Origin: a virus
Lineage: Duplodnaviria; Caudoviricetes
Length of the DNA stretch: 64,000 nucleotides
Strand: one strand, 5' to 3'
IMG/VR virus record: IMGVR_UViG_3300028591_000086
Span: 32,001 to 96,000 of that record
Positions 42,199-64,000 of the stretch are shown piece after piece. The notes beneath the pieces were generated by a model. That model did no database searches. It had not been told where the DNA came from and saw only the letters and a program-made list of their open reading frames with translations. Both the position numbers and the translations under genes were made by a program. Each line of letters opens with the position of its first letter. Within the stretch, counting starts at the first letter, position 1.

Positions 42199-44574
42199 CT
42201 ATGCATTAGCATCGGTTGATCCTGTCATACAGAACTTCTTTCTTGTCTCAATATCTTTACCAAGACAATAATCTAAAGTTCTAGCAGCAACTTCAGCATC
42301 TTTTATAGTAATACGTCTGATATTACGTGTATTTTTATTCAACAGATAATTTCTAACGTCTGCTGGGTCAGATTCACCAAGACCTTTAATACGTGATACA
42401 GAAGTATTATTATTGATCAATAATCCTTCAATAAATTGAGCATTTCTGTAGCTATTTCCACCATATTTAGTACCAGTATTTTTACCAATAAATACTATAT
42501 CCATTAATCTAATATCTGCTAATCTGTTGGCTATAGGTTTATATACGTTCCAATAGAAATTATTATCAAGGATACAGAAATAATGTTCATATCCTCTATC
42601 TATATTGATATGAAGATGATCTTTTCCCTGTGAGAGTATAGAACAATCATAATCGAGAGCGTTTAAACCTTTAAAGTTTCCAACAACAATATCTGAATAA
42701 TATCTAACAATGTATTCTAGTAATTCTGGACTTAAACCTGTGTGTGGTGAGAACGATTCTATAAATGATTTAAATCCTCTAAGTTTATTTACATAAACTT
42801 TAATAAGGTCTTTAGATAATTTCTTTTTCGTTCTTATATTTTCAGCTTCAAAAGCTTCACTAGCAGTATAAGCTACTACGTCATCAAATGATTTTTGATC
42901 AGGAAGATACAACGTTGTAGAATCTTTTCCTTTACCCACTCGTATTTGGAACAATGGTGGAAGAGCTTCATACAGATATCCTTTTTCTATAATTTCTGGC
43001 ATGTATCTATAGAAGAATCCTGTTAACAAGAGTCTAATGTTTGCTCCATCGGCATCGGCATCAGCACCGAGAATAATAGTATGGAATCTTAAACGATTAA
43101 TGTTAAAGTTTTCACCAAGACCACATCCTAATGCTTCTGTCATCATCTGGTGTTCTTCTGATAATTTAGCAATATGTTGTCCCCAAACATTCTGACCTTT
43201 ACCGCGTACCGCAAATACGGCTTGATACTGTGTGTTTCTAGCAGGTTTTACACTTCCGAAAGCAGAATCTCCTTCTACTATAATCATTTCACTTTCTTCA
43301 GGATTCTTACTACTGCATCCAGCGAATTTTTTCGGATTAATTGAACCAAATGTTATCTTACCAGCCGACGCTTTTATGATATTGTCTTTAGCATCTTTTG
43401 CGGCTTGTCTAGCTTTAGCACTACGTATAACAAGTTTACAAATATTATCTGCTTCTTTCTTATTATTGGCTAACCAAGTTTGTAATAATGGATATAATGA
43501 CGATGATGCGAAAAACATGATGTCACTATTATCCATAGCATCTTTTACTTGGGTTGTGTATTTTGGTGCAGAGTGTTTAGCTGATACTATAAGAACTAAT
43601 GTATCTCTAACGTCATTACCATCAATATCAAATTTAGCATTCTTAGGTAATAAGTTATTCTTATTAATATAATCCTTTATAGCCTTAGTGATAGCCATAT
43701 GGACACCAGTAACATGAGAACCACCATTTATAGTTCTAAGACCATTGACATATGATTCAATATATTCTCCATGTCCATTCTCTGCCCATGAAAAGAACAC
43801 AGAATAATTCATGTTAATAAATTTATCCGGTTTAGTAGGATGAGGTATCTGTTGTGAATTTGCAAAAGTTAACGGTCGTGACACAATATGGAATTTATTT
43901 TTCTTAACAACCACATTTGAAAAATATCCTAATAATCCTTCAGGATGATAATATTCAAAATGTTTATTATCCCAGTTTAATAAAATCTTTAAACCGGCAT
44001 TTATATAAACATTCATATCCATCATATTAGAATACTTATTAAAATCTGCTCCTAATTCTTCAAGTACTTCAATATCCGGTATCCATTCCACTCGTGTACC
44101 AGTAAGAGATTTAGGTTCATCTTTTATCCAGAATACTTTCTCTATGGATTTTTCCGATTCAAAATGTCCATGCTTTCCTCGATATACCGTGTCAACTATA
44201 AACTTCTCAGAAAGAGCATTAATACATTTCAGACCCAATCCATTCAAACCGATACTATAATCATATGTAGATTTACCGAATTTGCCTCCGGTATGGACTT
44301 TTACCAAGGCATCATGAAATACTTCAATAGGAATACCTAACGCATGATCTTCAATTATAAAGTGTGTTTTTCCTGTAGAATCTACATCTATCTTAATCTC
44401 GTTTAATCGTCCAGCATTAAATTCATCAATTTCATTTCCTAAACCTTCTAGAAATAGTCGGTATACACCTTCTTTACCAATAGAACCAATGTATACAGTT
44501 GGTCTAGTTCTAATACCATCCAAACCTTCGTGAGATTCGAATGATTCAGCTGTGTATTCTTTATTCTGTTGCAT
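42199..44574 (-). CDS. gyrB: Type IIA topoisomerase B subunit (GyrB-like)
   Basis: EGLDGIRTRPTVYIG, GHKL motifs (EDHALGIP, HTGGKF, GLNGLG), TOPRIM EGDSA and DADADG, C-terminal RIKGLGE, and an insertion of about 170 aa in the TOPRIM region. Confidence 0.93.
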   Translation of the reverse strand: MQQNKEYTAESFESHEGLDGIRTRPTVYIGSIGKEGVYRLFLEGLGNEIDEFNAGRLNEIKIDVDSTGKTHFIIEDHALGIPIEVFHDALVKVHTGGKFGKSTYDYSIGLNGLGLKCINALSEKFIVDTVYRGKHGHFESEKSIEKVFWIKDEPKSLTGTRVEWIPDIEVLEELGADFNKYSNMMDMNVYINAGLKILLNWDNKHFEYYHPEGLLGYFSNVVVKKNKFHIVSRPLTFANSQQIPHPTKPDKFINMNYSVFFSWAENGHGEYIESYVNGLRTINGGSHVTGVHMAITKAIKDYINKNNLLPKNAKFDIDGNDVRDTLVLIVSAKHSAPKYTTQVKDAMDNSDIMFFASSSLYPLLQTWLANNKKEADNICKLVIRSAKARQAAKDAKDNIIKASAGKITFGSINPKKFAGCSSKNPEESEMIIVEGDSAFGSVKPARNTQYQAVFAVRGKGQNVWGQHIAKLSEEHQMMTEALGCGLGENFNINRLRFHTIILGADADADGANIRLLLTGFFYRYMPEIIEKGYLYEALPPLFQIRVGKGKDSTTLYLPDQKSFDDVVAYTASEAFEAENIRTKKKLSKDLIKVYVNKLRGFKSFIESFSPHTGLSPELLEYIVRYYSDIVVGNFKGLNALDYDCSILSQGKDHLHINIDRGYEHYFCILDNNFYWNVYKPIANRLADIRLMDIVFIGKNTGTKYGGNSYRNAQFIEGLLINNNTSVSRIKGLGESDPADVRNYLLNKNTRNIRRITIKDAEVAARTLDYCLGKDIETRKKFCMTGSTDANA

Positions 44575-63416: not shown

Positions 63417-63511
63417 TTTTGGCCTCCTTAAATAGAATATTTAAAGGTTCTAAGTTAATTCCTTTCCCCTTTATTCATAATAATAATATATACAAGAAAC
63501 CCCCTATTAAA

Positions 63512-63724
63512 TAAAAAAAGAAGCGATTCGTATCACGAATACATTAAGCGATTAATACTAATCATGCACTTCAATACCGATTTTTTTCATCTGGAGGTTC
63601 TCGGCTAATATGGCTAACCTTGTTTGGAGGATGGATAAAACCAAACATTGTTAGATATTGTGTGTATAAGGGTTTGGACCTTAAACGAATATCTTTAATA
63701 TTCTTACACACGTATTTTCATAGC
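63512..63724 (-). ncRNA. Candidate late-expressed structured non-coding RNA (~210 nt)
   Basis: Late promoter AACA-TAGTTA-TG at 63724-63735, four consecutive helical domains and a 3' U-tract. No RBS-led ORF on this strand. Confidence 0.6.
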
Positions 63725-63891
63725 ATAACTATGTTTATCTAATATATTTTTTTACACAACATAATACATATTATGCATGAATTTTTTTAGATTGTTTAAA
63801 TACACAGCTATCCTTAAGCAATACATATTTTAAAACATACCCAACTATAATTCCTGCTTGGATCTTAGTTATGAATCACGATATATCTCAT

Positions 63892-64000
63892 TTAATTTAA
63901 TACAAAAGATATTTTATACGAGTCTTTTTCATCATCTCGTTCATATTTAAAATCTTTATATCCTTTTCCACTGAATTCTTTATAATTAATGAAACTCGAT
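63892..64000 (-). CDS. C-terminus of a gene entering from the right edge (...ERDDEKDSYKISFVLN*)
   Basis: Open frame from the window edge to TAA at 63892-63894. Confidence 0.55.
   Translation of the reverse strand, partial: SSFINYKEFSGKGYKDFKYERDDEKDSYKISFVLN

What the first reader, a model, noticed from the sequence alone, without database searches (positions are those of the whole stretch)
63512..63735. Stand-alone ~210-nt structured ncRNA with its own late promoter
Seen in sequence (minus strand): a perfect late motif AACA-TAGTTA-TG (63735-63724) is followed by four helical domains. (1) A three-way junction closed by GUGUGUAAG/CUUAUACAC, with inner AAUAU/AUAUU and GUUU/AAAC hairpins. (2) A long interrupted hairpin AAUAU-CUAAC-UGUUUGG / CCAAACA-GUUAG-AUAUU (63607-63659). 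(3) GCCGA/UCGGU. (4) A GAAGUG/CGCUUC-closed domain holding two hairpins, ending in a U-tract. Three helices contain G-U pairs that would be A-C mismatches on the other strand, which supports this orientation. Two anti-Shine-Dalgarno CCUCC motifs lie in or next to loops. The other copies of this promoter motif that I found lead into genes, while this one leads only into structure. Inference: an undescribed phage RNA, perhaps an RBS-targeting sRNA that silences early or host mRNAs late in infection, or an RNA involved in virion assembly.
Basis: partly seen in the sequence, partly recalled or inferred. Interest (0 to 1): 0.78.

Follow-up and report, generated by a model that had tools for sequence, protein, structure and literature searches.

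The report
Conserved late small RNA, jumbo phage
An uncultivated giant phage from ruminant guts carries a roughly 211-base protein-less RNA gene with its own late promoter, kept in about twenty related phage contigs; its job is untested, but it permanently displays a copy of the ribosome's mRNA-docking sequence and so most likely interferes with translation start sites.

Summary
On the minus strand, an AR9-type late promoter motif (63735-63724) is followed by about 211 nt of folded RNA and a U7 tract (63519-63513). No ORF is conserved on either strand.

I found the same element in 20 metagenomic contigs of related phages (13 distinct sequences). Helices P1, P1a and P2 keep pairing through compensatory changes. 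There are 47 G.U against 2 A.C cells, which fixes the strand. Substitutions fall mainly in loops.

The last 59 nt are 98-100% identical even in a relative whose flanks are about 77% identical. An 8-nt anti-Shine-Dalgarno loop motif (63599-63592) never varies.

More distant relatives lack the RNA. There the same late promoter sits about 50 nt from an early promoter in front of the same small gene. In two other relatives this slot holds a tmRNA, or a tRNA-shaped RNA showing a C-rich anti-SD loop.

So a stand-alone late RNA gene is well supported. The RBS-blocking function is plausible but unproven: there are no transcript data, no preferred target, no Rfam family, and the terminator is non-canonical.

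The scan also noted two other anti-SD RNAs in this genome.

The parts
63724..63735 (-). AR9-type late (non-virion RNAP) promoter motif AACA-N6-TG; predicted start at G63724
   Evidence: Matches the consensus in PMC5312081. The motif class is 8-fold enriched upstream of starts in this genome. It is conserved in 14 of 16 relatives' copies; two carry AACC.
63514..63724 (-). Predicted ~211-nt non-coding RNA
   Evidence: z = -3.16. Homologues occur in 20 contigs. No frame is conserved. No Rfam hit.
63660..63711 (-). 5' three-way junction: closing helix P1 (63711-63705 / 63666-63660) and inner hairpins P1a (63703-63687) and P1b (63683-63667)
   Evidence: P1 pair 25/76 is GC in most copies and AU in L003. 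P1a pair 37/45 occurs as GC, AU and UA. P1b changes only AU to GU.
63607..63659 (-). Long interrupted hairpin P2 with conserved loop (AUCCAUCC)
   Evidence: Two compensatory pairs, and in L003 a matched 2-bp shortening of both strands. U.G wobbles are present in most copies.
63576..63605 (-). Hairpin P3 with a large loop
   Evidence: The stem is kept, with G.U changing to A-U in three copies. The rest of the loop (A-run) varies in length and is replaced in L003.
63592..63599 (-). Invariant 8-nt anti-Shine-Dalgarno motif AACCUCCA in the P3 loop
   Evidence: Identical in all 16 copies. Predicted unpaired at p 0.80-0.95 in every distinct homologue.
63520..63572 (-). Invariant 3' domain: 6-bp closing stem enclosing two small hairpins, with an 8-nt direct repeat (63553-63546 and 63528-63521) that allows alternative pairing
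   Evidence: 98-100% identical in all relatives, including L003 whose flanks are 76-78% identical. Only 2 of 54 columns vary. Closing stem probability is 0.84. The alternative hairpin forms in truncated transcripts.
63513..63519 (-). U7 tract, putative transcript end
   Evidence: Directly follows the closing stem. Invariant except for one copy with U6. Not called by the simple terminator scan.
63476..63492 (-). AR9-type early (virion RNAP) promoter motif for the 61-aa gene (TATATATTAT-N6-G)
   Evidence: Matches the early consensus in PMC5312081. The same motif precedes the tRNA cluster, a repeat array and other genes in this genome. It is conserved in all relatives, including those without the RNA.
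63755..63872 (-). Frameshifted remnant of the C-terminal ~39 codons of a 124-aa gene; not part of the RNA
   Evidence: tblastn of the intact 124-aa proteins of L013 and L003 hits two frames here. The gene is intact in most relatives and cleanly absent in L010/L012, which still have the RNA.

Best explanation
This is a stand-alone, late-expressed small RNA gene of an AR9/PBS1-like jumbo phage.

Proposed sequence of events:
1. The phage's own non-virion RNA polymerase starts at G63724, behind the AACA-N6-TG motif.
2. It transcribes about 211 nt that fold into a 5' three-way junction, a long hairpin, a large-loop hairpin and a branched 3' domain.
3. It mostly stops at the U7 tract.
4. The 61-aa gene downstream is then served by its own early-type promoter.

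Shown here: the promoter class, strand, conservation, compensatory pairing, absence of a conserved ORF, and the insertion position between two promoters.

Inferred mechanism: the RNA acts in trans on translation initiation. Its invariant, unpaired anti-Shine-Dalgarno loop (AACCUCCA) pairs with GGAGG-type ribosome-binding sites of host or phage mRNAs. The sequence-invariant 3' domain serves as terminator, stability element or protein-binding handle.

My odds: a real RNA gene about 0.7. Given that, action through anti-SD pairing about 0.4-0.5.
For: Promoter and polymerase:
- The motif equals the AR9 late consensus and is a genuine upstream signal here.
- The genome encodes an RNAP beta homologue.
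- The terminase is closest to AR9-like Bacillus and Staphylococcus jumbo phages.

Structure and conservation:
- The fold is better than shuffles on the minus strand only.
- 13 distinct homologues were found. 99.1% of cells are paired and 4 pairs have double changes; 0 of 500 shuffles reach this.
- 47 G.U against 2 A.C cells.
- In the 5' part, variable columns are 23/78 paired against 45/79 unpaired.
- The 3' domain has 1 difference where about 13 are expected from flank divergence.
- The anti-SD loop is invariant and accessible.
- Indels of 1 and 2 nt, and a variable A-run, break every reading frame.

The slot in relatives:
- RNA-less relatives L005, L007 and L008 have the late and early motifs about 50 nt apart before the same small gene.
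- L004 carries a tmRNA in that slot (Rfam 83.6 bits).
- L009 carries a tRNA-shaped RNA with a 15-nt C-rich anti-SD loop (z = -3.89).

Other:
- The RNA persists whether or not the neighbouring 124-aa gene is present.
- The giant gene downstream has its own late motif after a strong terminator.
Against: - There are no expression data of any kind, and both transcript ends are predicted only.
- The terminator is non-canonical.
- L003's fold is no better than shuffles.
- Covariation rests mainly on one divergent sequence (L003) plus a few lineages.
- The 3' domain has no variation, so its fold is untested and its conservation could act at the DNA level.
- The first CCUCC is not conserved.
- Five-base anti-SD pairing is unspecific. 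GGAGG sites occur on both early- and late-type genes, and a duplex scan gave no target better than shuffled RNAs.
- The family is confined to a narrow clade.
Confidence: 0.42

Rival explanations
1. Cis-acting leader or attenuator. The structure is the 5' part of a late mRNA for the 61-aa gene. The invariant 3' domain is a regulated terminator. Its 5' strand can pair with either of two copies of an 8-nt repeat, which decides whether late transcription reads through.
For: - In RNA-less relatives the same late promoter directly serves the small gene.
- The 8-nt direct repeat gives an alternative hairpin that forms first in truncated transcripts, and only later the U-tract-adjacent stem.
- Extreme sequence conservation of the 3' domain is typical of ligand- or protein-sensing platforms.
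Against: - No riboswitch or leader family matches.
- The small gene keeps its own conserved early promoter right after the U-tract.
- The same slot holds trans-acting RNA genes (a tmRNA and a tRNA-like RNA) in relatives.
- The alternative hairpin is weak (-3.2 to -4.3 kcal/mol).
Confidence: 0.2
2. Structured RNA with a function other than RBS pairing. It could be a protein sponge or decoy, for example against a host defence or an RNA-binding protein. In that case the invariant 3' domain is the active part and the anti-SD motif is incidental.
For: - The strongest constraint is on the 3' domain, not the anti-SD loop region.
- The 3' domain is not especially stable (z = -0.89), so its sequence rather than its fold is what is kept.
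- No preferred RBS target was found.
Against: - No partner protein is indicated. Neighbouring genes have no Pfam or PHROG family, and the adjacent 124-aa gene is dispensable.
- The 8-nt anti-SD motif is invariant inside an otherwise variable loop.
Confidence: 0.2
3. No RNA function. The stretch is conserved intergenic DNA (a protein-binding or recombination region between two promoters) or decaying sequence left from cassette exchange, and the fold is incidental.
For: - The 5' part evolves as fast as or faster than neighbouring genes (86-90% against 93-94%).
- A gene remnant lies immediately upstream.
- L003's z-score is -0.35.
- The locus is clearly a site of insertions and deletions.
Against: - Compensatory and strand-specific wobble changes and the loop-biased substitution pattern are not expected of neutral DNA.
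- The promoter motif and U-tract are retained in about 20 contigs.
Confidence: 0.12
4. A micro-protein gene. Candidates are the 25-codon frame on the minus strand, or a 14-codon frame (MANLVWRMDKTKHC) on the plus strand that begins 12-14 nt after a GGAGG.
For: - The plus-strand 14-codon frame is open in most copies.
- It keeps its frame in L003 through a net 6-nt deletion.
- Two of the three changes between the window and L002 are synonymous (my reading).
Against: - The minus-strand frame is shifted by a 2-nt insertion and A-run length changes, and its ATG is lost in L003.
- The plus-strand frame is frameshifted in L010, L011 and L012. It has poor and variable SD spacing and no promoter motif on that strand.
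- All neighbouring genes are on the minus strand.
Confidence: 0.04

Closest known systems
C-rich / UCCC-motif base-pairing sRNAs of low-GC Gram-positive bacteria (RsaE/RoxS, LhrC1-5), named from my own knowledge and from an earlier scan note
   Same: A small structured RNA with a C-rich, SD-complementary motif exposed in a hairpin loop, ending in a stem plus U-tract. The proposed action is occlusion of ribosome-binding sites.
   Different: There is no sequence or Rfam relationship. It is phage-encoded and driven by a phage RNAP late promoter. Only one loop motif is conserved. No target has been identified.
Late transcription units of Bacillus jumbo phage AR9 (Lavysh et al. 2017, PMC5312081)
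   Same: The same late promoter consensus AACA-(6N)-T(A/G) and early consensus (TATATATTAT-N6-G). Genes with both promoters in tandem occur in AR9 and in this phage's relatives.
   Different: In what I read of the AR9 paper, late promoters head protein-coding genes or are internal or antisense; I saw no stand-alone late structured RNA gene described there. For phiKZ, dRNA-seq found no confirmed phage sRNA (PMC8244752).
Phage-encoded tmRNA and tRNA-like RNAs (the cargo of the same slot in relatives L004 and L009)
   Same: They occupy the identical genomic position between the late and early promoters, and they are translation-related structured RNAs.
   Different: The window RNA has no tRNA-like domain, no tag frame and no tmRNA score. 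The CM hit to the stretch after the L004 tmRNA is only 14.7 bits and is not significant by sequence shuffles.

Membership tests
AR9-type nvRNAP late promoter | Sequence AACA-(6N)-T(A/G), with the last base as the start site | tested here: met
   63735-63724 reads AACA-N6-TG; consensus taken from PMC5312081.
AR9-type nvRNAP late promoter | The motif class marks gene starts in this genome | tested here: met
   15 of 46 tight-motif sites lie 21-94 nt upstream of same-strand starts, against 4.1% expected.
AR9-type nvRNAP late promoter | Late, nvRNAP-dependent transcription from this site | not testable with these tools
   No transcript data. Only an RNAP beta homologue was found in the genome.
Any Rfam RNA family | Covariance-model score at or near the gathering threshold | tested here: not met
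   No hit overlaps 63512-63735, even at E up to 10.
tmRNA | tRNA-like acceptor/T-arm domain plus tag reading frame | tested here: not met
   ARAGORN and Rfam are negative in the window. Rfam does detect the relative's tmRNA at L004:3017-3433.
Trans-acting anti-SD (C-rich loop) sRNA | SD-complementary motif conserved and single-stranded | tested here: met
   AACCUCCA is invariant in 16 of 16 copies and unpaired at p 0.80-0.95.
Trans-acting anti-SD (C-rich loop) sRNA | Discrete transcript with a defined terminator | tested here: inconclusive
   A closing stem plus U7 is present and conserved, but it is not a canonical intrinsic terminator.
Trans-acting anti-SD (C-rich loop) sRNA | Specific mRNA targets with extended complementarity | tested here: inconclusive
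   The duplex scan of 161 RBS regions was no better than 40 shuffles. The method was crude and the host is unknown.
Intrinsic (Rho-independent) terminator | GC-rich simple hairpin immediately followed by a U-tract | tested here: not met
   Not reported by the scan; the stem closes a 41-nt branched loop.

The most novel reading that the evidence does not exclude
This lineage of rumen jumbo phages may keep a hot-swappable 'RNA gene slot' between a late and an early promoter. The slot is filled in different phages by a tmRNA, by a tRNA scaffold displaying an anti-SD loop, or by this 211-nt RNA. Together with two other anti-SD RNAs elsewhere in the genome, these would form a phage toolkit of 16S-tail mimics. 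The toolkit would reprogram translation initiation late in infection, for example by silencing SD-led host or early mRNAs.
Probability: 0.2. Interest if true: 0.78.

Novelty: new variant of a known kind. Interest (0 to 1): 0.52.

Why it matters
Regulatory RNAs made by phages that use their own multisubunit RNA polymerases are almost unknown. In the phiKZ dRNA-seq study, the one predicted sRNA could not be confirmed by northern blot (PMC8244752).

This finding offers a conserved, late-promoter-driven RNA with a fixed anti-Shine-Dalgarno loop. It sits at a locus that carries a tmRNA or a tRNA-like anti-SD RNA in relatives. That would give a concrete, testable case of phage control of translation by RNA, and a defined transcription unit (promoter, RNA, end signal) for studying non-virion RNAP termination.

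It remains a prediction for an uncultivated phage.

Tried and rejected
- **Cultured phages.** DNA and protein searches of the locus and its neighbours found nothing.
- **IMG/VR.** Searches with neighbour proteins, an alignment of them and three exact DNA patterns found no relatives.
- **JGI metagenomes.** The scan found only an unrelated Acido-Lenti-1 RNA sharing a 21-mer.
- **GTDB genomes.** No match to a 22-mer of the 3' domain.
- **Covariance model R1.** No paralogue in the phage genome. There was only a 14.7-bit hit after the L004 tmRNA. Pairwise alignment did not support it: 12 of 500 random genome segments scored as well.
- **Complementarity to the topoisomerase gene.** A 15-nt perfect match lies in a variable part of P2 and is at chance level. 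Rejected as a target.
- **Duplex scan against all RBS regions.** No better than shuffles. An earlier attempt timed out.
- **Link to the genome's TIGR array.** I considered one and saw no shared repeat.
- **Neighbour proteins.** No Pfam or PHROG family.
- **The 355-nt reading of the same stretch.** Rejected. Its upstream third is a pseudogene remnant.

Full report
**Context.** The window is bases 32001-96000 of a 195-kb IMG/VR virus record estimated at about 70% complete. The record has 29% G+C. It encodes DNA polymerase, a tail sheath, a helicase, topoisomerase II and a large terminase. The terminase's nearest cultured relatives, at about 30-33% identity, are AR9-like Bacillus jumbo phages and Staphylococcus jumbo phages. 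The record also encodes an RNA polymerase beta homologue. Sample names of the related contigs (the STEW19 and TONG22 series) suggest to me ruminant gut metagenomes; I did not verify the sample origin.

**The locus.** All genes here lie on the minus strand. In order they are:
- a 163-aa ORF, with its stop at 63892;
- a 475-nt gap;
- a 61-aa ORF with a strong RBS and a C-terminal hydrophobic helix (63416-63231);
- a strong hairpin terminator (63191-63158);
- a 2838-aa ORF (63079-54563).

**Checking the observation.** The sequence is as described.
- The 224-nt stretch folds at -47.1 kcal/mol on the minus strand, with z = -3.16 and no shuffle as good. On the plus strand z is only -1.23.
- Rfam gives nothing over the element, even at E up to 10.
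- The 'late motif' is not a private guess. Lavysh et al. (PMC5312081) define AR9 late promoters as AACA-(6N)-T(A/G), with the last base as the start. They define early promoters as AAATATATATTAT-(6N)-G, and note that continuously expressed genes carry both.
- In this genome the tighter form AACAT-N4-AT(A/G) occurs 46 times. Fifteen of these lie 21-94 nt upstream of a same-strand start codon, where 4.1% would be expected.
- Just after the U-tract, 63492-63476 matches the early consensus (TATATATTAT-N6-G). The same motif precedes the phage's tRNA cluster, a repeat array and several genes.
- The giant gene has its own late motif (63126-63115).

**Relatives.** Cultured phages and IMG/VR hold no relatives of this locus. 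The large protein collection does.
- The giant protein has homologues at 95, 78, 51-59 and 31-38% identity.
- The 61-aa protein has 14 further clusters.
- Fetching their contigs gave 20 contigs that carry the element, with 13 distinct sequences.

**Structure in the alignment.**
- For that structure, 99.1% of cells pair.
- Four pairs change on both sides: P1 25/76, P1a 37/45 (seen as GC, AU and UA), and P2 92/112 and 94/110.
- None of 500 column shuffles, and none of the slid controls, reach these values.
- In L003 the inner P2 stem is shortened by two base pairs on both strands and carries two compensatory changes (my reading).
- There are 47 G.U cells against 2 A.C cells. Pairing would fall from 99.2% to 92.8% on the other strand. 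This fixes the orientation.
- In the 5' part, 45 of 79 unpaired columns vary, against 23 of 78 paired ones.

**Coding potential.** No ORF survives comparison.
- The 25-codon minus-strand frame is shifted by a 2-nt insertion and by A-run length changes. It loses its ATG in L003.
- A 14-codon plus-strand frame is more persistent, but it is frameshifted in L010, L011 and L012 and has no promoter.

**Pattern of constraint.**
- The 5' two-thirds diverge about as fast as the flanking genes: 86-90% identity against 93-94% for the 163-aa gene, and 76% against 76-78% in L003.
- The last 59 nt are 98-100% identical everywhere. That is one difference in L003 where about 13 would be expected. Only 2 of 54 columns vary at all.
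- This domain is not unusually stable (z = -0.89), so its sequence is what is kept.
- Its closing stem next to the U7 tract is robust (p = 0.84), but the inner fold is ambiguous.
- It contains an 8-nt direct repeat. In a growing transcript this lets the 5' strand pair first with the upstream copy and later with the U-tract-proximal copy. This possible switch keeps the attenuator rival alive.
- In the P3 loop the 8-nt AACCUCCA is invariant while the rest of the loop changes. It is predicted unpaired at p 0.80-0.95 in every homologue.
- The other CCUCC is half in the P2 stem and is lost in L003.

**The slot.**
- In L005, L007 and L008 (giant protein 51-59% identical) the orthologous 155-159-aa gene is followed by the late motif. 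About 50 nt later comes the early motif, then a 50-aa gene and the giant gene. There is no RNA.
- In L004 the same interval is 1.4 kb of comparatively G+C-rich non-coding DNA that contains a tmRNA (Rfam 83.6 bits, L004:3017-3433). Its frame ends ...VVLQAAA-stop.
- In L009 the interval holds a 90-nt tRNA-shaped RNA (acceptor stem, T-arm). Its 'anticodon' arm shows a 15-nt C-rich anti-SD loop (z = -3.89). A near-identical loop sequence sits in a hairpin at 168.4 kb of this genome.
- The interval between the two promoters is therefore a place where this phage lineage inserts RNA genes. Two of the three cargoes bear exposed anti-SD sequences.
- A 124-aa gene usually lies just upstream of the late motif. 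In the window only a frameshifted remnant of its last ~39 codons is left (63872-63755), and L010/L012 lack it entirely. All of these keep the RNA. This also shows that the 355-nt version of this candidate, noted elsewhere in the scan, includes a pseudogene.

**Function.** Nothing here measures function.
- The most economical reading is a trans-acting late RNA whose fixed anti-SD loop pairs with GGAGG-type ribosome-binding sites, and whose 3' domain provides termination, stability or protein binding.
- GGAGG sites occur on 24 phage genes of both promoter classes.
- An unrestricted duplex scan found no target better than shuffled RNAs. The host is unknown.
- The covariance model finds no paralogue in the genome. 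It finds only a weak, non-significant resemblance downstream of the L004 tmRNA.
- I therefore rate a real RNA gene at about 0.7 and the anti-SD mechanism at under half of that.
- The rivals are a cis attenuator, a protein-binding or decoy RNA, functionless conserved DNA, and a micro-ORF.

**Comparison and novelty.**
- It works like the C-rich-loop sRNAs of low-GC Gram-positive bacteria but is not a member of any described family.
- Its promoter grammar is that of AR9.
- Confirmed sRNAs of jumbo phages with their own RNAPs are lacking (PMC8244752).
- I class it as a new variant of a known kind: a phage-encoded small regulatory RNA. It is of moderate interest because it is conserved but narrow in distribution and unsupported by expression data.
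- Earlier notes of this scan describe two further anti-SD RNAs in this genome. I saw their sequences but did not test them further.

Noticed in passing
L004:3017-3433: A related phage contig carries a tmRNA (Rfam RF00023, 83.6 bits) in the same promoter-to-promoter slot. Its tag-like frame ends ...VVLQAAA-stop. ARAGORN missed it.
   Followed up: partly
L004:2290-3014: About 720 nt of comparatively G+C-rich non-coding sequence lies between the late promoter motif and the tmRNA. It has no Rfam hit at E <= 0.1 and may be another large structured RNA.
   Followed up: no
L009:2772-2860: A tRNA-shaped RNA (acceptor stem and T-arm, z = -3.89) whose anticodon arm is replaced by a hairpin with a 15-nt C-rich anti-SD loop. 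It sits in the same slot. A near-identical loop sequence occurs at about 168,390 of this genome (L029:55-165).
   Followed up: partly
window 63755-63872 (minus): A frameshifted remnant of the last ~39 codons of a 124-aa gene. The gene is intact in most relatives and absent in L010/L012.
   Followed up: yes
L005:3340-3460, L007:3570-3715, L008:2040-2160: Tandem late (AACA-N6-TG) and early (TA(T/C)ATATTAT-N6-G) promoter motifs lie about 50 nt apart before the 50-aa gene. AR9 has the same arrangement for continuously expressed genes.
   Followed up: partly
window 63521-63553 (minus): An 8-nt direct repeat (AAUCGCUU) inside the invariant 3' domain allows two mutually exclusive pairings of the 5' strand of the terminal stem.
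   Followed up: partly
window 42699-42713: RNA nt 77-91 is perfectly complementary (15 nt) to the topoisomerase II mRNA. It lies in a variable part of P2 and is at chance level, so it is probably meaningless.
   Followed up: partly
genome 144,650-145,785 (outside the window): Three tRNA genes (Asp, Gln, Asp) lie in a 1.8-kb non-coding stretch, directly preceded by an early-type promoter motif.
   Followed up: no
genome 127,517-127,859 minus (L030): Another late-motif-led, ORF-less stretch with three CUCCU tracts and a canonical terminator. It was already noted by the scan.
   Followed up: no
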